Positions 1,329-36,322 of a stretch of 37,163 nucleotides of DNA are shown in pieces. The position numbers were made by a program, and so were the translations under genes. Under the pieces are notes generated by a model, which saw only the letters and a program-made list of their open reading frames with translations, was not told the origin of the DNA and searched no databases. Source of the stretch: Thermoproteota archaeon. Lineage in GTDB: Archaea; Korarchaeota; Korarchaeia; B14-G2. Location: the NCBI GenBank assembly GCA_037917675.1, contig JAVCBW010000024.1, positions 1 through 37,163 of the forward strand. Reading direction: 5' to 3'. Every line of letters starts with the position of its first letter. The stretch's first letter is position 1.

Positions 1329-2291
1329 CTACATGTGTGTCCTGCTCTCAGATGAGATGAGATTGTCGAGCTCCTTTATCATGGTCTCTAGGTCTGTCAG
1401 CTGGAGTGGATGCCTCCTTCTCCTCGATAGGATGCTGATCAATCGAGATAGCAGCTTAGCTCTCCTCTCTGCTTGACATATGTCTTGGGCTGGAGCTGAC
1501 GCCGTTAGAACATGCGCTAGCAGTTTTATGTCCCTAGAGGCTTTAGAGCCTGGTGCATAGAGGACCACTGGGACACCTGCCTCATATGCCTCTCTAGCCT
1601 TCCTGTCATCTCTTACTGTTAGAATCTGTGTTCTGCCAGCTACCAGCGAGGCTTTAGCATATCTGACTGCCCACTTGCCTCCCCTATACTTGTTTATGAC
1701 GGCAACTGGAACAGTCCCACCAGCTAGGGCAGCTATATCCACTAGCTGACTTGCCTCATCTATGCTAGGCTTATCAGGTTGAGCTACAGGTATGAAGCTT
1801 CCTAGCGGCATCAGGAGGAGGTAGTCTGCTAGCCCTGAAAGCCCACCTGCCCCTGGTGCATCTATGACCAGAAGCCTGCACCTAGGCTCCAGGAACCTGA
1901 GCAGATTAAGCATCTTCTCTGAGTACTCACTGTAGCTCTTAAGAATCTCTCTGTCACTTGAGCTCAGTGGAGCTGCAGGGATCATGACTAGACTCTTGTA
2001 GGCAGGATGGGAAGTAGAGTATGCAATCTCCCATGGCTCAGCTACCCCAGTCAAGTACTCTCTCAGAGTAGGGTAGCTTTCTGGGTCAGCCTCTCTCTCC
2101 TCTATGAAGTGTGGATTCCAGATGTAGACTGCAGATTGCCTGCCAAAATCACATTCGATAAACACGTCTACTAGCCCTGGTGGAGGAGGTGCTATGAGCT
2201 GTGCAGCCACTAGTGTGTTGAAGCTTATGGTAGTTTTCCCTACTCCTCCACTTCTAGCCCCAAACACATAAGCATCCATGCCACCACCCAT
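1329..2291 (-). CDS. MinD/ParA-family P-loop ATPase (divergent)
   Basis: Walker A variant RSGGVGKTT, Walker B VIDAPG, VINK motif, and C-terminal GVPVVLYAPGSKASRDI typical of MinD. Confidence 0.8.
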   Translation of the reverse strand: MGGGMDAYVFGARSGGVGKTTISFNTLVAAQLIAPPPPGLVDVFIECDFGRQSAVYIWNPHFIEEREADPESYPTLREYLTGVAEPWEIAYSTSHPAYKSLVMIPAAPLSSSDREILKSYSEYSEKMLNLLRFLEPRCRLLVIDAPGAGGLSGLADYLLLMPLGSFIPVAQPDKPSIDEASQLVDIAALAGGTVPVAVINKYRGGKWAVRYAKASLVAGRTQILTVRDDRKAREAYEAGVPVVLYAPGSKASRDIKLLAHVLTASAPAQDICQAERRAKLLSRLISILSRRRRHPLQLTDLETMIKELDNLISSESRTHM

Positions 2292-17758: not shown

Positions 17759-19435
17759 ATGCCACTTGATGAGAGGCCATGGTTTAAGTTTTATCCTGAA
17801 AGGGTCCCTAGGAGCATAGAGTATCCGAAAAAGACGCTACACCAGGTGCTCAGAGAGAGTGCTAAGAGAGTACCTGACAAAGCTGCCCTCATCTACTTTG
17901 GTAGGAAGGTCACGTTTAGGGAGTTAGATGAGCTGAGTGACAGGTTTGCTGCCGCACTAGCCGGCATGGGTGTGAGGAAAGGTGACAAGATAGCTATAAT
18001 GCTTCCAAACTGCCCTCAGTTCGCGATAGCATACTACGGTGCATTGAAGGCTGGCGCAGCCATTGTCCCACTCAACCCCCTGTATACTCCTAGAGAAATA
18101 GAGTATGTTTTGAATAATTCTGAGGCAAAGATCATAGTTGTACTTGATCAGATCTATGACAGAGTTAAGGAGGTCAAAGACAAAACTAAGCTTGAGCATG
18201 TAGTGTATACTAGCATAGTGGACTTTATGCCTCCATTCACCAAGCTTCTGGCTGGAGTCTTTAAGGGGCTGAAGCCACTGAGGATACCTGAGGCAACAAG
18301 CTTCCTAGAGCTGCTCGGAAAGTACCCGCCTAAACCACCTGAAGTTGATATCAAGCCAGATGAGCTTGCGATGCTCCTCTATACTGGAGGTACCACAGGA
18401 GTGCCTAAGGGAGTCATGCTCACACACTTTAACCTCCTAAGCAATGCAGTTCAGACATGCAGAGTAGGGTACATAGATGAAGATGCAGTTGTTCTCGGGG
18501 TGCTCCCACTCTTCCACTCATATGGCCTCACGACCGTGCTGAACTCAGCGATATACATGGGTATTACAGCCGTAATACTACCTAGATTCTCACCTGAAGA
18601 AGTCTTTAAGGCCGTCAAGAAGTATAAGCCTACACACTTCCCTGGTGTACCCACAATGTACATTGCACTACTGAACCACCCTGCACTAAGCAAGTATAGG
18701 GAGCACATGAGGAGCATAAAGTACTGCATATCAGGAGCAGCCCCACTTCCAGTGGAGGTAGCTAAGAGGTGGAGGGAAGTCACTGGAGGCATGATAGTAG
18801 AGGGCTATGGGCTATCTGAGGCGAGCCCAGTGACGCATGTCAACCCACTTGATGACATAAGGAAGGTGAAGCCTGGCTCAATAGGCATACCACTACCGGA
18901 CACAGATGCTAGGATAGTAGACTTGGAGACTGGTGAGAAGGAGCTGCCTCCAGGAGAAGTCGGGGAGCTTGTAGTGAAAGGGCCTCAGGTAGGCTTAGGC
19001 TACTGGAAGATGCCTGAGGAAACTAAGAATACATTCAGAGAAGGATGGCTCTATACAGGTGACATAGCTAAGATGGATGAAGACGGCTACTTCTACATAG
19101 TAGACAGGAAGAAGGATATGATAAATGTAGGTGGCTTGAAGGCTTGGCCTAGAGAAATAGAGGAGGTTCTCTACCAGCATCCTGCAGTCAAGCTGGCTGC
19201 TGCAGTCGGGATCCCAGATGAGTACTATGGTGAAGTTCCTAAGGCCTTTGTAGTGCTTAAAGACGAGTATAAGGGTAAGGTCAAGCCAGAGGAGATAATA
19301 GAGTTCTGCAGAGAGAGATTAGCCAAGTATAAGGTGCCGAAGCAAGTAGAGTTCAGGGAAGAGCTGCCAACCACGCTAGTAGGGAAGGTACTCAGAAGAG
19401 TGCTTAAGGAGGAAGAGCTGAGGAAGAGAGGCTAA
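17759..19435 (+). CDS. Long-chain acyl-CoA synthetase (FadD-like AMP-binding enzyme)
   Basis: YTGGTTGVPKG, EGYGLSEASP, TGD..DRKKD and LPTTLVGK motifs. Confidence 0.95.
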   Translation: MPLDERPWFKFYPERVPRSIEYPKKTLHQVLRESAKRVPDKAALIYFGRKVTFRELDELSDRFAAALAGMGVRKGDKIAIMLPNCPQFAIAYYGALKAGAAIVPLNPLYTPREIEYVLNNSEAKIIVVLDQIYDRVKEVKDKTKLEHVVYTSIVDFMPPFTKLLAGVFKGLKPLRIPEATSFLELLGKYPPKPPEVDIKPDELAMLLYTGGTTGVPKGVMLTHFNLLSNAVQTCRVGYIDEDAVVLGVLPLFHSYGLTTVLNSAIYMGITAVILPRFSPEEVFKAVKKYKPTHFPGVPTMYIALLNHPALSKYREHMRSIKYCISGAAPLPVEVAKRWREVTGGMIVEGYGLSEASPVTHVNPLDDIRKVKPGSIGIPLPDTDARIVDLETGEKELPPGEVGELVVKGPQVGLGYWKMPEETKNTFREGWLYTGDIAKMDEDGYFYIVDRKKDMINVGGLKAWPREIEEVLYQHPAVKLAAAVGIPDEYYGEVPKAFVVLKDEYKGKVKPEEIIEFCRERLAKYKVPKQVEFREELPTTLVGKVLRRVLKEEELRKRG

Positions 19436-19460
19436 CCGTTCTGGCTCTCCGCCACTTTCG

Positions 19461-20573
19461 ATGCTACAAAAGCATCCTTATGCTACAAATCCAACACTAT
19501 ACATTTCTCCCCCTACTTTTTGGCTGGTCTCCTTGAGCCTACCTGCTAAGCTTAAGCAGGCTATCGAGCTTAAGGAGGGGGAAGTAGGCTACCTGTGTAG
19601 CTATACTCCAGAGGAGATTCTTGAGGCTTCAGGTAGGAGCTACAGTAGGATACTGGGTTCTGACGTCACCTACTTAGCTGACTCAGCTATCCCGACTTTC
19701 ACATGTAGGTTTGCTAGGAGATGTCTAGAGCAGGTGCTTAGTGGAAGGTTTAGAAGGATAGTTGGAGCCTATACCTGTGACACCATGAGGAGTATAGCGA
19801 GTGTAGCAAGCTGGAGAGGAGTAGACACATGCTTCATCAACATTCCTAGGGATGCTAGCAAGAAGAGGAGCTCAGAGTACTTTGTCAGAGAGCTTGAGAA
19901 GCTGATGGGGTTCCTCAAGACATCAGAGGAGAGGGTTGAGGAGGCTATTAGGGTCTGTGAAGAGGATAGGAGAGCTGTCATGAAGCTTGCTGAGTTCAGA
20001 GCAATGGATGAGCCACCAATCACAGGATTAGAAGCCTATCTAGTTGAGCTGAGCGGGATGCTTATGCCGAAGGAGGAGCACTTGGAGCTTGTTCAGAAGC
20101 TGCTAGATAAGCTACCCTCCAGGAGTGGAGTCCCCGGAGCTAGGGTAATGGTTATCGGAAGCGTCCTGACGAATATAAGGATGCTGGAGGCTATTGAGAG
20201 AGGAGGCTGTGTCGTCGTATACGACGACCTCTGTACTGGATGCAGGTTCTATTTGGGGCTAGCACCAGCTTCAGGCAAGCCTCTGGAGAGGATAGCTGCC
20301 AGGTACATTGAGAGAGCTAGATGCCCTTGTATCACGCCATTCTCTGAGAGAGCAGGGTACATCATGGAGCAAGCTAGGAAGTTCAGGGCTCAGGGAGCTA
20401 TATTTCTGCTCCAGAAGTTCTGTGACCCACATTCATTCGAGTATCCAGCGCTCAAGAGGATGCTTGAGTCTATTGGTGTTAAGACCATGCTTTTCGAGAC
20501 AGAGGAGGGGGCAGCTGAGGTTGAGAAGCTCAGGATAGCTGCTGAAGGCTTCGTGGAGAGGCTTGGTGGCTGA
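19461..20573 (+). CDS. 2-hydroxyacyl-CoA dehydratase / benzoyl-CoA reductase family subunit (HgdB/BcrC/BzdN-like)
   Basis: GYLCSYTPEE, CRFARRC, TCD, DDLCTG and QKFCDPH motifs. The start may be TTG at 19533. Confidence 0.85.
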   Translation: MLQKHPYATNPTLYISPPTFWLVSLSLPAKLKQAIELKEGEVGYLCSYTPEEILEASGRSYSRILGSDVTYLADSAIPTFTCRFARRCLEQVLSGRFRRIVGAYTCDTMRSIASVASWRGVDTCFINIPRDASKKRSSEYFVRELEKLMGFLKTSEERVEEAIRVCEEDRRAVMKLAEFRAMDEPPITGLEAYLVELSGMLMPKEEHLELVQKLLDKLPSRSGVPGARVMVIGSVLTNIRMLEAIERGGCVVVYDDLCTGCRFYLGLAPASGKPLERIAARYIERARCPCITPFSERAGYIMEQARKFRAQGAIFLLQKFCDPHSFEYPALKRMLESIGVKTMLFETEEGAAEVEKLRIAAEGFVERLGG

Positions 20574-21780
20574 AATGAGAGCTAGCAGGCTAGCTACAGC
20601 CAGGGAGATATCCTATGCCATAGGAGCTAGAGTACTTGCTGCAAAGCTCTACAAGGAGCAGGGTAGCAGGAAGGTAGCTTGGGTGACAGCCCTAAGCCCA
20701 GTTGAAGTCCTCTATGCAGCAGACTTCATGCCGCTCTATCCAGAGCAGTACTCTGCTGCATGTGGTGCATTCAAAATGTCACTTGAGCTAGTGGAGAGAG
20801 CTGAGAAAGCAGGCTATCCACAGGACCTATGCTCCTATTTCAGGTGTAATATGGGGCATGTCCTCTCTGGAGATGGGCCTTTAGGAGGGCTTGCTAAGCC
20901 AGATTTCCTCCTTCTCTCAGGTAACTTCTGCTTGACTAGAGTGAAGTGGTGGGAGATCCTCTCAGAGGAGCTTAAAGCCCCGCTCTTCCACATTGACATC
21001 CCCTTTGTAACAGAGGAAGACAGGTGGCACCTGGAGTATGTCACGTGGCAGATTGAGGAGCTGATCTCTCTCCTAGGTGAGCTTGGGGCAGAAGTCACAC
21101 AAGACAGCTTAAGGAGGAGCGTCGAGCTCTCAGATGAGGCCTCTAAGCTCTGGAATGAGGTCATGAACCTGAGGAAGGCTAAGCCATGCCCCATGGGCGC
21201 CAGAGACGCGTTCACAAGCATGTTCTTGATCGTGACGTGTCCAGGCCACCCTATTGCAGTAGTCCTCCTCAAAAGACTGCTCAAGGAGGTCAGAGAGAGG
21301 GTAGCTGATGGAAGAGGAGCCTTAGAGGAGGAGAGGTTCAGAGTGATGCTAGATAACATACCGACATGGCATGATCCCTGGATTATCAACTACCTGGAAG
21401 AGAAGGGCGCCATATCAGTAGCAGAGACCTACACGTACTCAGTGTGGTCCCCTAGGCTAGACTCCTCTAGGCCTCTCGAGAGCCTTGCCAGAAAGTGCCT
21501 TCATGCAGGGCTTAATGAGAGCTTTGAGAGAAGAATAAGGGCTACAGTTAAGGTAGCTAAGGAGTTTGAGATAGATGGAGCTGTGATCCATGCCAACAGA
21601 AGCTGTAAGCCGTATTCCTCCTGGGCCTATGAGCTTAAGAGAGCTCTCAGAGAGGAGCTTGAAGTCCCTAGCGCCATTTTTGAAGCAGACATGGTGGACC
21701 CTAGGGTGTTCTCGAGAGAGCAAATTAGAGCAAGGCTGGATGCGCTGATAGAGGCGATGGCTGAGAAAGCGAGGAGATGA
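20563..21780 (+). CDS. 2-hydroxyacyl-CoA dehydratase / benzoyl-CoA reductase family subunit (HgdA/BcrB/BzdO-like)
   Basis: YPE...A.CGA, GYPQDLCSY, NFC...KWWE, NRSCKP and EADMVD motifs. Confidence 0.88.
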   Translation: MVAEMRASRLATAREISYAIGARVLAAKLYKEQGSRKVAWVTALSPVEVLYAADFMPLYPEQYSAACGAFKMSLELVERAEKAGYPQDLCSYFRCNMGHVLSGDGPLGGLAKPDFLLLSGNFCLTRVKWWEILSEELKAPLFHIDIPFVTEEDRWHLEYVTWQIEELISLLGELGAEVTQDSLRRSVELSDEASKLWNEVMNLRKAKPCPMGARDAFTSMFLIVTCPGHPIAVVLLKRLLKEVRERVADGRGALEEERFRVMLDNIPTWHDPWIINYLEEKGAISVAETYTYSVWSPRLDSSRPLESLARKCLHAGLNESFERRIRATVKVAKEFEIDGAVIHANRSCKPYSSWAYELKRALREELEVPSAIFEADMVDPRVFSREQIRARLDALIEAMAEKARR

Positions 21781-32792: not shown

Positions 32793-33524
32793 TTACCCGC
32801 ATTCACTAGGCCACATGACATCGTGTTCTGCAGCCCTAGAAGTAGCTGCTGGAGCTCCTGTCTTGAAGATAGTAGCTGATATTGGGCTATGCATTATATA
32901 ATACCTGAGATAACTCTCAGCATCTATCCTCCGTACAGCTGTAGAGTCTACATCTACTATGTATATGTATGCCAGCTTTGCTTGCCTTAGCTCCTCAAGT
33001 GTTATCGGTGGGTTCTTGTAGTAGCTGTCGCAGATAGCCTTCAGCTCCAGGAGCTCCTTCACACTTCTCCTCTCTGGAGGCTTAACTAAGACTATAGGGA
33101 TCTGTAGGATGTGATATGGAGGGGTAGCTAGAGCAAAAACCTGTGCATGCCTGCTGTACCTCGCTATCTTAGCTGCTACCCTCGTGTACCTGTATGCTAT
33201 AGGGTCTAAGGCGTTCTCTGGTGGGACATATCCGGTCTCAACCTCGACTATGAGCACTTCACCACCTCTCCTAGCATACACGTCACAGACTAGGCTGCCA
33301 CCTAGCTCATGCTCGACATCTACATCATATCCTCTGGTGGCTAGATGCCAGGCACATATGGCCTCCATTACGCTGTGATTGCTCTTTAGAAGCCCTCTCC
33401 TATGCATATCCTTTAGCTTCCTAATGATCTTCTTAAGCTGGTAAGCAGCCCATGTACCTGAGCTAGGATGCAGCTTGCTGACAAGTATGTCAAGGTCTTC
33501 TTCGATATCCTTCAAGAATACCAC
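32793..33524 (-). CDS. Uncharacterised protein with PD-(D/E)xK nuclease-like motif
   Basis: HSVME..L..RGYDVDVE..CDVYARR..LIVEVETG pattern fits a restriction-endonuclease-like fold, with ExE in place of ExK. KIARYS and YYKNPP resemble a conserved TACK hypothetical family recalled from memory. Confidence 0.75.
   Translation of the reverse strand: MVFLKDIEEDLDILVSKLHPSSGTWAAYQLKKIIRKLKDMHRRGLLKSNHSVMEAICAWHLATRGYDVDVEHELGGSLVCDVYARRGGEVLIVEVETGYVPPENALDPIAYRYTRVAAKIARYSRHAQVFALATPPYHILQIPIVLVKPPERRSVKELLELKAICDSYYKNPPITLEELRQAKLAYIYIVDVDSTAVRRIDAESYLRYYIMHSPISATIFKTGAPAATSRAAEHDVMWPSECG
32794..32818. repeat. 25-nt exact direct repeat, copy 2
   Basis: Identical to 32515-32539; supplies the last codons (MWPSECG) and part of the stop of the 32793-33524 ORF. 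Confidence 0.95.
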
Positions 33525-33607: not shown

Positions 33608-33745
33608 GGGCTGGCGGAGCAGGCCGGTGTATGGGTTTCTGCTGAATCTCAGGGTAGCCGCAAGGCTACTCAGAGGCTCAGTGGGAACTCCCTGAGGTCT
33701 GAGGACCTTAAGGGAGGCTCATACACCAGGCTTCGACGCCAGCCC
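33608..33745 (+). ncRNA. Unassigned highly structured Y-shaped RNA candidate
   Basis: Terminal stem GGGCTGGCG/CGCCAGCCC, stem GGTGTATGG/TCATACACC, long arm capped by GGGTAGCC-GCAA-GGCTACTC, second arm TCCCTGAGGTC-TGAG-GACCTTAAGGGA. Many G-U pairs on the + strand. Confidence 0.7.
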
Positions 33746-35010
33746 TACTTCCCTGACCTTCTAAGTACAGCTTGAAGAGCAGCTGAGACAGCTAGTGAGG
33801 GCAGACTAGCACCTAGACTTGGCATGTACTTTACCAGTAGGAAGTAAGTTATCAGCCCTGCTACCCATGATGCTATCGACCTCCAGGCTACGTGTGGAGC
33901 CTTCTCATAGAACTCATCTAGCTCCACTCGCCCTCTCCTCACAATGAAGTACTCTGAGAGAGTTGTACCAAACAGTGGGATGAATGTTGCTCCTATCATG
34001 AGAAGGAACCACTCATACTCTGCTAGAGGAAGAGTGTAGGCTAATACTGCTGATACTGCTGTGATAGCTAGGACAAGCTTCCACTGCCTTAACCTAGGTA
34101 GCATGTTCTGTATCGAGACTGCTGAAGAATAGACGTCTGCAAACGCATTATCTGTCTCATCGACTAAGATAGCTATGAGAGCTAGTGTGCCCATGTATAG
34201 CTGTAGTATTGAAGCTGCTACAAACTCCTCTCCTGCCAGAGCAGCTAAAGCTGCACCTAAGGCATAGAACCACGTGTTAGCTGCTGTGTAGCCTAGTAGT
34301 GTACCGGTGAAACCAGAGGAGGGCTTCATGCTGAACCTGTTGTAATCAGATATCAGAGGCATCCATGAGATAGGCATCGCTATCACGAGGTCTAGTGCTA
34401 GAGGCCATGGCATGCCTCCCTGCCCACCTTCTACAGTCCATGTTGGAGCCTTAAGCACCTGGTATGTTATCCAAGCTGTTGATATGTAGACTAGCCATAT
34501 AGCGAACTTCTCAAGCCACTGCCTGATGACAGCAAGTGGCCCTCCTATCGCTAGGAGCACTACAAATGCTGAAAAGGCTGTTAGCCACACTAGTGTCAGC
34601 CCTGATCCTCCAGCTATCATAGCAGCTGCCTCAGCCATCACCTTGAGCTCGAAGGCTGTCCATCCTACTAGCTGAAGCACATTTAGGGCTGTAGCAATAT
34701 ATGAGCCTGACTTGCCGAACACTGGACGTAAGGAGACCATGGTTGGAACGCCATGTCTAGCTCCTATGACTCCAGCTGCAGCTAGCAGCGTGCTTCCGAT
34801 TATGGAGCCTATGAGAGAGACTACCAGCGCCTGCCTTAATGTGAGAGATGGAATCATTAGTGCTCCAGCTTGCAGCACTAGTATACCTACTCCGAGGCTT
34901 GACCACAGCACGAAGAGGTCTATGCCTCTTAGAACCCTAGCCTCTCGTGGAACCGGCTCAACCCCCCACTCAGGTGGAGCTCTAATCCAGGATCTCCTCT
35001 TACTAGGCAT
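33745..35010 (-). CDS. cytX: NCS1-family permease, putative hydroxymethylpyrimidine (thiamine precursor) transporter
   Basis: FVLWSSLGVG, NVLQLVGW..FE, AMPISWMPLISDYNRF and DETDNAFADVYS motifs; preceded by a TPP riboswitch. Confidence 0.87.
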   Translation of the reverse strand: MPSKRRSWIRAPPEWGVEPVPREARVLRGIDLFVLWSSLGVGILVLQAGALMIPSLTLRQALVVSLIGSIIGSTLLAAAGVIGARHGVPTMVSLRPVFGKSGSYIATALNVLQLVGWTAFELKVMAEAAAMIAGGSGLTLVWLTAFSAFVVLLAIGGPLAVIRQWLEKFAIWLVYISTAWITYQVLKAPTWTVEGGQGGMPWPLALDLVIAMPISWMPLISDYNRFSMKPSSGFTGTLLGYTAANTWFYALGAALAALAGEEFVAASILQLYMGTLALIAILVDETDNAFADVYSSAVSIQNMLPRLRQWKLVLAITAVSAVLAYTLPLAEYEWFLLMIGATFIPLFGTTLSEYFIVRRGRVELDEFYEKAPHVAWRSIASWVAGLITYFLLVKYMPSLGASLPSLAVSAALQAVLRRSGK

Positions 35011-35046
35011 AGCTCCCCTCCAGCAGACACCGGAGGGGGCTGAGGT
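35011..35046 (-). promoter_or_regulatory. SD-sequestering hairpin (riboswitch expression platform)
   Basis: AGCCCCCTCCGG-TGTCTG-CTGGAGGGGAGCT immediately before the cytX ATG; the GGAGG SD lies in the stem. Confidence 0.8.
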
Positions 35047-35061
35047 GCGGTAAGGAAGCGT

Positions 35062-35166
35062 GCGGGCACGCTCCCTACGCCGGCATTACCCGGATCAGGT
35101 TCAAGGGGTCGGCGGCGCGATAGCCGCCCTCTCAGCCAGGTTGCCCCCAGCTCCCCCGGTGCCCGC
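35062..35166 (-). ncRNA. TPP riboswitch (THI element) aptamer
   Basis: Minus strand: P1 GCGGGCAC/GTGCCCGC, GGGG, CTGAGA, ACCC-TTGAACCTGAT-CCGGGTAATGCCGG-CGTAGGGA; matches the TPP consensus core. Confidence 0.95.
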
Positions 35167-35187
35167 TAGATAGCCTACAGGGGCGTA

Positions 35188-35196
35188 CTTTAAAAA
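35188..35196 (-). promoter_or_regulatory. TATA box for the riboswitch-cytX transcript
   Basis: TTTTTAAAG centred ~26 nt upstream of the first P1 nucleotide. Confidence 0.7.
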
Positions 35197-35234: not shown

Positions 35235-36239
35235 CTACTGGAATTTGAAAACACCTTCAGCTAAGATCTCCCTTGTTGAGCCATCTCTGTACTTTACTGT
35301 GACAGTTGGCTTTGTTATGAGGAAGTCTATGTGGCTTCTGGAAGTGTTTCTTCCACCTGGCATATCTCTATTGCTCCCGAAGGCGACGTGTGCTGTCCCA
35401 TAGACCTTCTCACTCTCCAAGAACTCCTCTACCACTCTAGCCTTTCTGTTGATCCCTATCGCAAACTCTCCTAGCATACTAGCTTGAGCGTCTGCTTTAA
35501 GCACCCTCTGGATCACATCTCTGACTTCTGGCCGGCATTTCAGGCTTTCTAAGTCAGCTTTCCCCCCGCTGGCTCGGAGCTCTATACCTCCCTCAACTAG
35601 GCCTATGCCACCTGCAGCCTCAGCTACAAGCTTACCGCTCATACTGCTCTCTATAGGAGCTACTGTAACCTCTCCAACAGGTAGGTTTATCCACATGAGG
35701 CTTCTCCAGTCTAGCTGCACATCTGTGAAGAACTCTCTGCCCTCTACTGAGATGGTGAAGTCTGCTCCACTAGAGCTCATCACCCTAACCTCCACTACAT
35801 CCTGTAGTGTGGTGAGCAGCTCTTGCGCTAGCTGCCTCATCTCAATGTAGTCTTCCTCAGATAGTGCAAGTGCTCCTTCAGCTAGCATATCTAGAGTTAC
35901 ACCTGGACAGTGAGCCAGTCTAACTCTACGCCTTCTCTCAAGGCTTATAAGCTCTATCCTGAACTCCACTTCTTCAGCAGGCCCCCTCAGGAGGTTCATG
36001 TAGACATCTGGGTGGCTAGCAATTATGGCTTCCCTCAGATGCAGTGGGATAGTTCTCCTGTACTCTTTAGAGGGCTCTAGAGTGATTAGTCTTGTCCACA
36101 AGCCCAATGAGAGAGCCGCTTTAGAGAAGGCTTCAGCTACCTCAGCCTTCTCCTCGTCAGCTACCACCAGGATACTCTCTCCAGGCACAGCCTCGAGGAC
36201 GAACTTTAAAGCATTACCTGCAGCCTTAGCTGGATCCAT
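35235..36239 (-). CDS. Aminopeptidase (M29 / aminopeptidase T family)
   Basis: NLPVGEV, LGEFAIGIN, ESEK..GTAHVAFG and SHIDF motifs. Start taken at MDPAK (36239). Confidence 0.9.
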   Translation of the reverse strand: MDPAKAAGNALKFVLEAVPGESILVVADEEKAEVAEAFSKAALSLGLWTRLITLEPSKEYRRTIPLHLREAIIASHPDVYMNLLRGPAEEVEFRIELISLERRRRVRLAHCPGVTLDMLAEGALALSEEDYIEMRQLAQELLTTLQDVVEVRVMSSSGADFTISVEGREFFTDVQLDWRSLMWINLPVGEVTVAPIESSMSGKLVAEAAGGIGLVEGGIELRASGGKADLESLKCRPEVRDVIQRVLKADAQASMLGEFAIGINRKARVVEEFLESEKVYGTAHVAFGSNRDMPGGRNTSRSHIDFLITKPTVTVKYRDGSTREILAEGVFKFQ

Positions 36240-36322
36240 GGAATCCCTAGGCCTGCTGTGCTGCAATGATTTAGGCTTTCCTGTCTGAAGCAGTCTTAGG
36301 CTATACTTATATCACCTTCTCA

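What the first reader, a model, noticed from the sequence alone, without database searches (positions are those of the whole stretch)
35011..35196. Archaeal TPP riboswitch with a complete translational switch in front of cytX
Seen: a canonical TPP aptamer starts where the TATA box predicts +1, followed by a hairpin burying GGAGG right before the ATG. The aptamer 5' strand CCGGGGGAGCUGGGG (35159-35145) is near-complementary to the anti-SD strand CCUCAGCCCCCUCCGG (35045-35030), giving a mutually exclusive ON fold. Established: riboswitches are rare in archaea, TPP elements are best known from Thermoplasmatales, and many archaea use the ThiR regulator instead. Inference: an SD-sequestration riboswitch in a TACK-type archaeon that feeds TPP enzymes such as the POR encoded here.
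Basis: partly seen in the sequence, partly recalled or inferred. Interest (0 to 1): 0.8.

Follow-up and report, generated by a model that had tools for sequence, protein, structure and literature searches.

The report
TPP riboswitch before korarchaeal cytX gene
A genuine vitamin-B1 (TPP)-sensing RNA switch sits in front of a vitamin-precursor transporter gene of a Korarchaeia archaeon and most likely hides the ribosome-binding site when TPP is plentiful; the kind of switch is well known, but its detailed design in this lineage has apparently not been described.

Summary
Rfam RF00059 (TPP) matches window 35054-35167 (-) full length at 68.9 bits, against a cut-off of 54.3. A TATA-like box lies 21 nt upstream. 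Downstream, a 10-bp hairpin buries GGAGG 6 nt before the ATG of a CytX-like NCS1 permease.

The aptamer 5' strand pairs with the anti-SD strand at -43.2 kcal/mol, against -28.0±3.3 for 1000 shuffles, none as low. Across 24 Korarchaeia leaders this helix is 94.3% paired, against 49-64% when slid, and three of its pairs show compensatory changes. RNAalifold predicts it on its own.

A second conserved element (CUCCUUAUGC in relatives) clamps the aptamer 3' half. No leader has a T-run above 2, so control is most likely translational.

The genome shows no ThiC, no ThiE and no second ThiN (ThiR-like) gene. It does have ThiD-ThiN and Thi4, which fits precursor (HMP) salvage.

The element is common: 25 of 41 related genomes score over the cut-off, and it also precedes cytX in Bathyarchaeia and Chloroflexota. 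Verdict: a new member of a known kind, moderate interest, with no experimental or RNA evidence.

The parts
35189..35196 (-). TATA-like box UUUUUAAA. 21 nt lie between it and the first base of the Rfam match, so the predicted transcript start is within about 2 nt of P1.
   Evidence: Sequence. An A/T-rich box at a similar distance was found by my pattern in 18 of the 28 related leaders with 60 nt upstream (box starts 24-30 nt upstream, plus one extra hit at 41). The other 10 show A/T-rich boxes by eye that the pattern missed. The transcript start is inferred, not mapped.
35054..35167 (-). TPP (THI-box) aptamer, Rfam RF00059, full length, G+C 0.72 against 0.49 for the window
   Evidence: 68.9 bits against 54.3, E 1.1e-11. 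Window G+C. 30 aptamer pairs are 99.3% paired over 719 cells in 24 Korarchaeia leaders, against 39-56% when slid.
35145..35166 (-). Switching strand, GCGGGCACCGGGGGAGCUGGGG: the 5' strands of P1, P2 and P3. In the TPP-free fold it pairs with 35022-35045.
   Evidence: MFE pair list. (conservation and covariation).
35062..35069 (-). P1 3' strand, GUGCCCGC
35053..35062 (-). Clamp element CACGCUUCCU. In the TPP-free fold it pairs with aptamer AGGGAGCGUG (35067-35076). It corresponds to the conserved CUCCUUAUGC of relatives.
   Evidence: MFE folds. The aligned helix is 93.8% paired over 258 cells, against 48-60% when slid, and RNAalifold predicts it.
35022..35045 (-). Anti-SD strand plus hairpin loop, CCUCAGCCCCCUCCGGUGUCUGCU. 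The loop and 5' arm imitate the P1 3' strand and compete for the P1 5' strand.
35015..35038 (-). SD-sequestering hairpin: CCCCUCCGGU (35038-35029), loop GUCU, GCUGGAGGGG (35024-35015)
   Evidence: -19.9 kcal/mol local fold. It forms whenever the aptamer is enforced. The aligned hairpin is 83.7% paired, against 49-66% when slid, with no covariation.
35017..35021 (-). Shine-Dalgarno core GGAGG, starting at -11 relative to the A of AUG
   Evidence: It is complementary to CCUCC in the 16S rRNA 3' end ...GGAUCACCUCCC of the same genome. Genome-wide, SD 5-mers peak at -10/-11.
33745..35010 (-). cytX-like NCS1 permease, 421 aa (putative hydroxymethylpyrimidine importer), start AUG 35010-35008
   Evidence: The N-terminus aligns with relatives.

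Best explanation
This is a TPP-responsive translational OFF riboswitch in the 5' leader of cytX of a Korarchaeia archaeon.

Transcription starts about 25 nt after a TATA box, right at the P1 helix (inferred). With TPP bound, the aptamer (P1-P5) holds its own 5' strand. The downstream segment CCCCUCCGGU...GCUGGAGGGG then folds into a 10-bp hairpin that buries the Shine-Dalgarno GGAGG, so the 30S subunit cannot load and CytX is not made.

Without TPP the aptamer opens into two alternative helices. In the first, its 5' strand (P1/P2/P3 5' sides) pairs with the anti-SD arm and loop of that hairpin; the loop is a copy of the P1 3' strand. In the second, its 3' part (AGGGAGCGUG) pairs with a conserved clamp just after P1. 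The last 14 nt (GGAGGGGAGCUAUG) are then single-stranded and translation starts.

Physiologically, the cell appears unable to make the pyrimidine moiety of thiamine. It would import it through CytX only when TPP is low.

Shown here: the aptamer match, the two folds, their conservation and covariation, SD/16S complementarity, and the absence of terminator signals. Inferred: TPP binding, the transcript start, the effect on translation, and the CytX substrate.
For: Aptamer: RF00059 at 68.9 bits against 54.3, full length. Its 30 pairs are 99.3% paired in 24 Korarchaeia leaders, with 3 compensatory pairs.

ON helix, alignment columns 2-15 with 143-156: 94.3% of 336 cells paired, against 49-64% for six slid registers. 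Three pairs and 19 cells changed on both sides, and 0 of 500 shuffles reach the covariation score. P1 positions 3 and 8 co-vary both with the P1 3' strand and with the hairpin loop. RNAalifold, given no structure, returns this ON fold plus the clamp helix and leaves the SD/AUG columns unpaired.

Window duplex: -43.2 kcal/mol against -28.0±3.3, with 0 of 1000 shuffles as low. The MFE of the 160-nt leader is the ON fold at 37, 60, 75 and 85 C, with the last 14 nt free.

SD accessibility: with the aptamer enforced, the SD is 0.02 unpaired at 75 C, against 0.66 in the free ensemble. The two states differ by 5.0 kcal/mol at 75 C and 0.7 at 37 C. The free ensemble is more open than the aptamer-enforced one in 22 of 24 leaders at 75 C.

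The 16S 3' end ...CACCUCCC complements GGAGG. SD 5-mers precede 303 of 1222 long ORFs, against 119 of 1222 in the control, and peak at -10/-11, where this one sits.

No T-run longer than 2 occurs in any of the 24 leaders.

Regulon logic: in relatives the same leader type precedes cytX, an ABC solute-binding protein, ThiC and another NCS1 permease. The own genome has no ThiC or ThiE hit, one ThiD-ThiN open frame, Thi4, and no second ThiN domain that could be ThiR.
Against: There is no experiment and no RNA data. No RNA run holds the stretch, so the transcript start, TPP binding and the effect on translation are all inferred.

The SD hairpin shows no covariation: 1 pair changed on both sides, and shuffles do as well. 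This is expected if both arms are fixed by the rRNA, but it is not positive evidence. Four of the 24 rows are also misaligned by one column there.

At 37 C with 15 nt of coding sequence added, the window's MFE is already the aptamer fold, and the SD is 0.06 unpaired without ligand. The predicted switching window therefore exists only at high temperature, where the energy parameters are extrapolated.

In 2 of 24 leaders (G015, G036) the modelled SD is more open with the aptamer enforced, and in 13 of 24 the difference is under 0.2. The fixed -13..-4 window and some start codons are my own choices.

The sequences are related, so the shuffle counts overstate independence. By eye there are about two independent events per covarying pair.

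CytX scores 3 bits under the TIGR02358 cut-off, and its substrate is itself only predicted. The genome is 92.7% complete, so missing ThiC, ThiE or ThiR is 'not found', not 'absent'.
Confidence: 0.8

Rival explanations
1. The aptamer is functional but acts on transcription or mRNA fate: premature termination, factor-dependent termination, or decay of the leader. The SD hairpin would then be incidental.
For: The Chloroflexota cytX leaders with the same aptamer carry a GC hairpin plus U-run after it (for example L057, L069, L070). The aptamer-cytX pair can therefore use termination platforms. Archaeal factor-dependent termination would leave no sequence signal that I could scan for.
Against: Archaeal intrinsic termination needs oligo-T (recalled). 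The longest T-run between aptamer and start codon is 2 in all 24 Korarchaeia leaders. The conserved, covarying alternative helix ends exactly at the SD and frees it.
Confidence: 0.08
2. The aptamer senses TPP, but the SD hairpin is constitutive, for example as a thermostable structure or thermometer. Regulation would then be weak or absent in this particular genome.
For: At 37 C the model predicts a buried SD even without ligand. The window's clamp element deviates from the relatives' consensus (CUUCCUUACC against CUCCUUAUGC).
Against: At 75 C the free ensemble opens the SD to 0.66, against 0.02. The window keeps every pair of the ON helix (pair list). Its same-genus relative has the same design.
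Confidence: 0.07
3. The element is a relic, or a bacterial contaminant contig binned into an archaeal MAG.
For: The genome is a 62-contig MAG with 1.92% estimated contamination. The closest non-archaeal CytX proteins are from Chloroflexota, at about 50% identity, and also carry TPP aptamers.
Against: The same leader occurs in 25 of 41 related genomes over the cut-off, including one assembled as a single 1.6-Mb contig. In the CytX tree the 9 Korarchaeia-type rows form one clade (SH-aLRT 99) on the archaeal side. All 29 Chloroflexota rows lie on the other side of a branch with support 100. The promoter is TATA-type, not sigma-70-type. The aptamer is intact at 99.3% pairing.
Confidence: 0.02

Closest known systems
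Escherichia coli thiM TPP riboswitch (translational; PMC1920254, passages read)
   Same: Same aptamer class and the same logic. TPP-bound: the anti-SD pairs with the SD and translation is off. TPP-free: the anti-SD is held by part of the aptamer and the SD is free. [quoted passage not shown]
   Different: In thiM the anti-SD region (nt 108-125) pairs with the aptamer 3' half (nt 71-86: P5, P4 and P1 3' sides). Here the anti-SD arm and loop pair with the aptamer 5' half (P1/P2/P3 5' sides), and a separate conserved element takes the 3' half. The host is an archaeon with a TATA promoter, and the leader is very G+C-rich (0.72).
THI elements of Thermoplasmatales (Rodionov et al. 2002; recalled, not read here)
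   Same: Archaeal TPP aptamers in front of thiamine transport or salvage genes.
   Different: A different phylum. I could not read their platform description. The six Thermoplasmata- or Methanobacteriota-labelled cytX loci fetched here have no TPP aptamer within up to 1500 nt upstream (0 of 6).
Bathyarchaeia cytX TPP leaders
   Same: Same aptamer, same downstream gene, archaeal A/T-rich promoter-like box upstream.
   Different: A different platform. In L053, L055 and L064 a GUG that opens the CytX frame lies inside the aptamer's 3' end, 7 nt after the aptamer's own GGAGGG, so the aptamer itself would hide the SD and start codon. Others have a UUUUGGAGGU site 60-70 nt downstream. None has the Korarchaeia P1-mimic hairpin.
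Chloroflexota (Anaerolineae, Thermoflexus) cytX TPP riboswitches (27 of 29 loci)
   Same: Same aptamer class and an orthologous transporter at about 50% identity.
   Different: Among the six printed leaders, hairpin-plus-U-run terminators follow the aptamer (for example L057, L069, L070). The CytX proteins form a separate clade.
Fluoride riboswitch of Thermococcus kodakarensis (Speed et al. 2018, as cited in PMC8241225; passage read)
   Same: A natural riboswitch in a hyperthermophilic archaeon, thought to act on translation.
   Different: A different aptamer class and ligand. According to that 2021 passage it is the only archaeal riboswitch shown by experiment, so archaeal TPP switches had not been tested at that date.

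Membership tests
TPP riboswitch aptamer (Rfam RF00059) | Covariance-model score at or above the curated gathering score, over the full model | tested here: met
   68.9 bits against 54.3, model positions 1-105 of 105, E 1.1e-11; found again in the whole-genome search
TPP riboswitch aptamer (Rfam RF00059) | Helices P1, P2, P3, P3a, P4/P5 around a three-way junction, kept in relatives | tested here: met
   30 pairs, 99.3% of 719 cells paired, against 39-56% when slid. Compensatory changes in P1 (2 pairs) and P3a (1 pair).
TPP riboswitch aptamer (Rfam RF00059) | Conserved ligand-sensing sequence blocks (CUGAGA; ACCUGAUC...GGUAAUGCC...GCG). Their role in binding is recalled. | tested here: met
   Both blocks are present at 35135-35130 and 35100-35078 and are identical to the consensus line. 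They are invariant in the 24 leaders.
TPP riboswitch aptamer (Rfam RF00059) | Lies in the 5' leader of a thiamine synthesis or transport gene | tested here: met
   43 nt after the Rfam match comes the ATG of a CytX-like permease. In relatives the downstream genes are cytX, an ABC binding protein, ThiC and an NCS1 permease.
TPP riboswitch aptamer (Rfam RF00059) | Binds TPP | not testable with these tools
   Needs in-line probing, ITC or similar
SD-sequestering translational riboswitch (thiM type) | A Shine-Dalgarno site that matches the host 16S 3' end, at working distance from the start codon | tested here: met
   GGAGG starts at -11. The 16S 3' end reads ...GGAUCACCUCCC. The genome-wide SD peak is at -10/-11.
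SD-sequestering translational riboswitch (thiM type) | The SD is paired to an anti-SD when the aptamer is folded | tested here: met
   10-bp hairpin at -19.9 kcal/mol. The SD is 0.00-0.02 unpaired with the aptamer enforced. 83.7% paired across 24 leaders, without covariation.
SD-sequestering translational riboswitch (thiM type) | A mutually exclusive pairing of the anti-SD strand with aptamer nucleotides that frees the SD | tested here: met
   94.3% paired, 3 compensatory pairs, 0 of 500 and 0 of 1000 shuffles reach it. The partner is the aptamer 5' half, unlike thiM.
SD-sequestering translational riboswitch (thiM type) | No terminator between the aptamer and the start codon | tested here: met
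   The longest T-run is 2 in all 24 leaders
SD-sequestering translational riboswitch (thiM type) | Translation falls when ligand is added | not testable with these tools
   Needs a reporter or toeprint assay
CytX, putative hydroxymethylpyrimidine transporter (TIGR02358) | Score over the curated cut-off of the hypothetical-equivalog model | tested here: inconclusive
   306.9 bits against a 309.85 cut-off, covering 2-384 of 386. Pfam PF02133 scores 87.1 against 23.5. It is best called CytX-like.
ThiR-type transcriptional control of thiamine genes (archaea; family recalled from Rodionov et al. 2017, not read) | A ThiN-domain regulator gene in the genome, separate from ThiDN | tested here: not met
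   PF10120 gives one match only. It lies in the same 489-aa open frame as the ThiD kinase domain (C19:12568-13848). The genome is 92.7% complete.

The most novel reading that the evidence does not exclude
Korarchaeia use a distinct 'double-clamp' TPP expression platform. The loop of the SD hairpin is a copy of the P1 3' strand that captures the P1 5' strand. A second conserved element (CUCCUUAUGC) captures the invariant GCGUAGGGAG of the aptamer. Together they would form a reversible thermodynamic switch tuned to about 75-85 C.

This switch would be the only thiamine regulator of a lineage that lacks ThiR and, in this genome, ThiC. It would have been inherited vertically within the class rather than borrowed recently from bacteria. 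It would also be the first archaeal TPP riboswitch whose mechanism can be read from sequence, and a ready test case for translational riboswitch control in hyperthermophiles.
Probability: 0.45. Interest if true: 0.5.

Novelty: new member of a known kind. Interest (0 to 1): 0.35.

Why it matters
Riboswitch control in archaea is thinly documented. One paper read here says only a fluoride riboswitch had been shown by experiment as of 2021 (PMC8241225). A 2017 survey counted a single riboswitch in Korarchaeota (PMC5473149).

This locus, with 23 related leaders, gives a full and testable wiring diagram for an archaeal translational riboswitch: promoter, aptamer, anti-sequestor, clamp, SD hairpin and start codon. 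It includes specific covarying positions that could be mutated.

It also shows that one aptamer-cytX unit carries three different expression platforms in three lineages. Korarchaeia use a P1-mimic hairpin, some Bathyarchaeia place the SD and start inside the aptamer, and Chloroflexota use terminators.

Finally, it marks this organism as a likely pyrimidine-moiety (HMP) auxotroph that depends on its community. None of this overturns current understanding. It extends a textbook mechanism to a little-studied hyperthermophilic lineage.

Tried and rejected
RNA evidence: the look-up of sequencing runs listed no RNA holder, only two DNA metagenome runs that may be the source. Read laying was therefore not used, and nothing about expression or the transcript start could be tested.

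Literature: Rodionov et al. 2017 on ThiR was asked for by DOI and by PMC id and is not held. Statements about ThiR, and about TPP elements being best known from Thermoplasmatales, are recalled. Full-text searches found 0 papers for 'Korarchaeum' + 'TPP riboswitch'. 'Bathyarchae' + 'TPP riboswitch' also found 0. 'Korarchaeum' + 'riboswitch' found 5 papers, of which I opened one (PMC5397151, passages); it concerns the riboflavin regulator RbkR. 'TPP riboswitch' + 'Thermoplasmatales' found 1 preprint, seen in the listing only. Supplementary tables of McCown et al. 2017, which would say which class the one Korarchaeota riboswitch belongs to, were not seen.

Wider taxonomic survey: a 'phylum' search returned only 32 genomes, essentially the same set as (23 of 32 with a match). 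It says nothing about other TACK lineages; for those I relied on the 80 CytX loci.

Horizontal transfer: the quick CytX tree used 78 rows; L040, L045 and L078 were dropped as under 350 aa. It gives no sign of recent transfer from Chloroflexota into Korarchaeia. However, it covers only the 80 best tblastn loci, is unrooted, and has long branches among rows without the aptamer. No direction or order of events is claimed. The nearest CytX sisters of the Korarchaeia clade (L039, L041, L042, L046) lack the aptamer, so gain and loss cannot be told apart.

Covariation in the SD hairpin itself was sought and not found.

Folding at 37 C with coding sequence attached did not reproduce the ON state for the window. 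I report this as evidence against, not as a rejection.

The upstream in-frame AUG inside CUCCUUAUGC was considered as an alternative start and set aside. It lies in frame with the CDS, with the frame open, in 11 of the leaders listed. It is absent in the window, has no SD, and its conservation is explained by pairing to GCGUA of the aptamer.

The antisense ORF 34712-35053 (+) was treated as a mechanical ORF overlapping cytX and not pursued.

Group labels are my own reading of the record titles. 'Kor' includes rows titled Thermoproteota archaeon, uncultured archaeon or uncultured Nitrososphaerota archaeon that fall in the Korarchaeia-type clade. This is partly circular for that group.
Full report
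**1. What is at the site**

On the minus strand, the intergenic region lies between an M29-peptidase-like gene (35235-36266) and a 421-aa ORF (33745-35010). It reads: UUUUUAAA (35196-35189), 21 nt, then a 114-nt stretch that Rfam's TPP model RF00059 matches end to end. The match scores 68.9 bits against a gathering score of 54.3, with E 1.1e-11 and G+C 0.72. It is the only Rfam family over threshold in the window. It is also the only TPP match in the 1.78-Mb, 62-contig genome, which is 92.7% complete. Window G+C is 0.49.

**2. The gene**

The ORF matches Pfam PF02133 (NCS1 permeases, 87.1 bits). It also matches NCBIfam TIGR02358 'putative hydroxymethylpyrimidine transporter CytX' at 306.9 bits, 3 bits under that model's 309.85 cut-off. 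I call it CytX-like. Its substrate is a prediction of the family, not tested here.

**3. The organism**

The closest CytX loci in named genome records are titled Thermoproteota archaeon (91% identity), Candidatus Korarchaeum sp., and 'Kor1'/'Kor2'. The genome's class relatives carry the same leader. I take it to be a Korarchaeia-type archaeon of a small order apart from the main family. This is an inference from titles and kinship labels.

The partial 16S gene ends ...GGAUCACCUCCC.

**4. The two folds in the window**

Folding 35175-35000 gives an MFE of -94.4 kcal/mol (z -2.97) in which the aptamer is not formed. Instead the 5' strand A1-G22 (RNA numbering from 35167) pairs with nt 124-146. 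That partner is the anti-SD arm and loop of the downstream hairpin. In addition, AGGGAGCGUG (92-101) pairs with CACGCUUCCU (106-115). In this fold the last 14 nt, GGAGGGGAGCUAUG, are free. It is the MFE of the 160-nt leader at 37, 60, 75 and 85 C.

If the Rfam aptamer pairs are enforced, the remainder folds into CCCCUCCGGU/GCUGGAGGGG. This is a 10-bp hairpin of -19.9 kcal/mol on its own, and the SD becomes 0.00-0.02 unpaired.

The two states differ by 0.7 kcal/mol at 37 C and 5.0 kcal/mol at 75 C, in favour of the open-aptamer fold. That is the near-degeneracy a ligand-driven switch needs.

With 15 nt of coding sequence added, the 37 C MFE is the aptamer fold, and the SD is closed even without ligand (0.06). 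At 75 C it is 0.66 open without the aptamer constraint.

The 5'-strand/linker duplex is -43.2 kcal/mol. The mean of 1000 dinucleotide shuffles of the linker is -28.0±3.3, and none reaches it.

**5. Comparative test**

RF00059 matches 27 of 41 related genomes, G000 included, and 25 of those are over the cut-off. Among genomes at least 90% complete and at most 5% contaminated the figure is 18 of 24. By family the counts are 25 of 36 in f2, 0 of 2 in f3 and 0 of 1 in f4.

Of the 30 places fetched:
- 13 precede a CytX-like frame.
- 10 precede an ABC solute-binding protein.
- 2 precede ThiC.
- 1 precedes another NCS1 permease.
- 4 are cut by contig ends.

Pfam was checked on five representatives; the others were assigned by N-terminal likeness.

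I aligned the 24 leaders that reach a start codon (A1). The start codons were chosen by me as the first in-frame ATG/GTG/TTG preceded by a GGAG-like site. Results on A1:

| Structure | Cells paired | Slid registers | Covariation |
|---|---|---|---|
| Aptamer, 30 pairs | 99.3% of 719 | 39-56% | compensatory changes in P1 (2 pairs) and P3a (1 pair) |
| ON helix, columns 2-15 with 143-156 | 94.3% of 336 | 49-64% | 3 pairs and 19 cells changed on both sides; 0 of 500 shuffles reach the score |
| Clamp helix, aptamer GGCGUAGGGAG with CUCCUUAUGCC | 93.8% of 258 | 48-60% | almost none, since the aptamer side is invariant |
| SD hairpin | 83.7% | 49-66% | none |

In the SD hairpin, four rows are shifted by one column in this alignment.

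The telling detail is in P1. Its positions 3 and 8 change from C to A and from A to G between clades. Both the P1 3' strand and the hairpin loop follow (columns 109 and 104; columns 155 and 150). In G019 the loop follows (G-C) while P1 keeps a G-U. The loop therefore behaves as a P1 3'-strand mimic.

RNAalifold, given only the alignment, returns the ON helix plus the clamp and leaves the SD/AUG columns open.

Because the sequences are related, the shuffle figures overstate independence. By eye there are about two independent events per covarying pair.

**6. Why translation rather than termination**

GGAGG starts at -11 and complements the 16S tail. Genome-wide, SD-like 5-mers start at -16..-8 before 303 of 1222 long ORFs. 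At a control position inside genes the figure is 119 of 1222. The peak is at -10/-11 (the start codons there are crude longest-ORF starts).

No leader has a T-run longer than 2 between the aptamer and the start codon. By contrast, the Chloroflexota cytX leaders show a GC hairpin plus U-run.

**7. Promoter**

An A/T-rich box preceded by purines lies at a nearly fixed distance upstream of P1 in the relatives. My pattern caught it in 18 of the 28 leaders with 60 nt upstream, with box starts 24-30 nt upstream (plus one extra hit at 41). The other 10 have A/T-rich boxes by eye. With the usual archaeal spacing (recalled), the transcript would begin within about 2 nt of P1. This is inferred, because no RNA run was available.

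**8. Physiology**

The whole-genome family searches gave:
- ThiC (PF01964): no match.
- ThiE (PF02581): no match.
- ThiD kinase (313.8 bits) and ThiN (204.5 bits): both present, in one 489-aa open frame.
- Thi4: 263.3 bits.
- ThiM-family (PF02110): a weak hit of 41.1 bits.
- A second ThiN domain that could be a ThiR regulator: none.

Within the limits of a 92.7%-complete MAG, the cell looks able to make the thiazole part and to couple the two moieties, but not to make the pyrimidine part. That makes TPP-repressed import of the pyrimidine precursor sensible.

**9. Distribution beyond the class**

Of the 80 closest CytX loci in named genomes, Rfam finds a TPP aptamer upstream as follows, counting only loci with at least 200 nt of upstream sequence held:

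| Group (my reading of record titles) | Loci with aptamer | Too short to judge |
|---|---|---|
| Korarchaeia-type | 7 of 8 | 2 |
| Bathyarchaeia-labelled | 13 of 16 | 0 |
| Chloroflexota-labelled | 27 of 29 | 0 |
| Nitrososphaeria- or Thaumarchaeota-labelled | 0 of 12 | 2 |
| Thermoplasmata- or Methanobacteriota-labelled | 0 of 6 | 0 |
| Other TACK-labelled | 0 of 4 | 0 |
| Culexarchaeia | 0 of 1 | 0 |

The platforms differ by lineage. Among the six Chloroflexota leaders printed, terminator-like hairpins with U-runs are evident (for example L057, L069, L070). In three Bathyarchaeia leaders a GUG start lies inside the aptamer's 3' end, just after the aptamer's own GGAGGG.

In a quick maximum-likelihood tree of 78 CytX proteins, the 9 Korarchaeia-type rows form one clade (SH-aLRT 99) on the archaeal side. 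The 29 Chloroflexota rows form one clade (96), and a branch with support 100 separates the two halves of the tree. I see no sign of recent transfer from bacteria, but the tree is unrooted and narrowly sampled.

**10. Comparison with what is known**

The logic is that of E. coli thiM, where the TPP-free RNA pairs aptamer nt 71-86 with expression-domain nt 108-125 and frees the SD (PMC1920254, passages). Here the anti-SD partner is the aptamer's 5' half, and a separate clamp takes the 3' half.

McCown et al. 2017 state that TPP and fluoride classes are the commonest in archaea and that Korarchaeota 'possess only one' riboswitch in their survey (PMC5473149, passages). Which class that one belongs to is not in the passages I read.

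A 2021 paper states that only the T. kodakarensis fluoride riboswitch had been shown by experiment in archaea (PMC8241225, passage).

My searches found no paper that describes a Korarchaeum or Bathyarchaeia TPP riboswitch. These searches cover open-access full text only.

**11. Verdict**

This is a new member of a known kind with a well-resolved, covariation-backed expression platform in an under-studied lineage. It is not rare within that lineage, and any Rfam-based annotation would detect it. Interest is moderate (0.35).

Noticed in passing
L053, L055, L064 (Bathyarchaeia-labelled cytX loci), aptamer 1391-1503: The TPP aptamer overlaps the start of the CytX match. A GUG right after ...GGCGGAGGGAAAACC opens the frame. 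The aptamer's own conserved GGAGGG could therefore serve as the SD, and P1 would hide the start codon, giving a platform-free design.
   Followed up: partly
L057, L069, L070 (also L059, L061, L066; Chloroflexota cytX loci), 20-90 nt after the aptamer: A GC-rich hairpin followed by a U-run (for example gcgccgccc...gggcggcgcuuuu) follows the TPP aptamer. The same aptamer-cytX unit thus uses a terminator platform in these bacteria.
   Followed up: partly
G006:C2:749598-749709 and 751244-751357: Two TPP aptamers lie 1.5 kb apart on the same strand in one related genome (55.2 and 76.1 bits). The gene between them was not examined.
   Followed up: no
A1 columns 118-128 (relatives); window 35053-35062: The conserved CUCCUUAUGC element contains an AUG. 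It lies in frame with the downstream gene, with the frame open, in 11 of the leaders listed. It is absent in the window. I take it to be a by-product of pairing to the aptamer.
   Followed up: partly
L002 (G030), 1338-1500 minus strand: In one thiC leader the SD-preceded ATG runs into a stop after about 21 codons. The ThiC match (from profile position 42) begins 162 nt after the aptamer. This could be a frameshift in the MAG or a short upstream ORF.
   Followed up: no
window 32793-33524 (-): A 243-aa ORF lies 220 nt downstream of cytX on the same strand, with no Pfam or NCBIfam match. Whether it is co-transcribed is unknown.
   Followed up: no
G000:C19:12568-13848 (-): The ThiD kinase and ThiN thiamine-phosphate synthase domains lie in one 489-aa open frame (a ThiDN fusion). 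It is the only ThiN domain found in the genome.
   Followed up: partly
window 17759-21780 (+): An AMP-binding acyl-CoA synthetase-like gene is followed by two 2-hydroxyglutaryl-CoA dehydratase D-component genes, near several peptidase genes (M24, M20, M29-like). This suggests an amino-acid or peptide-fermenting lifestyle.
   Followed up: no
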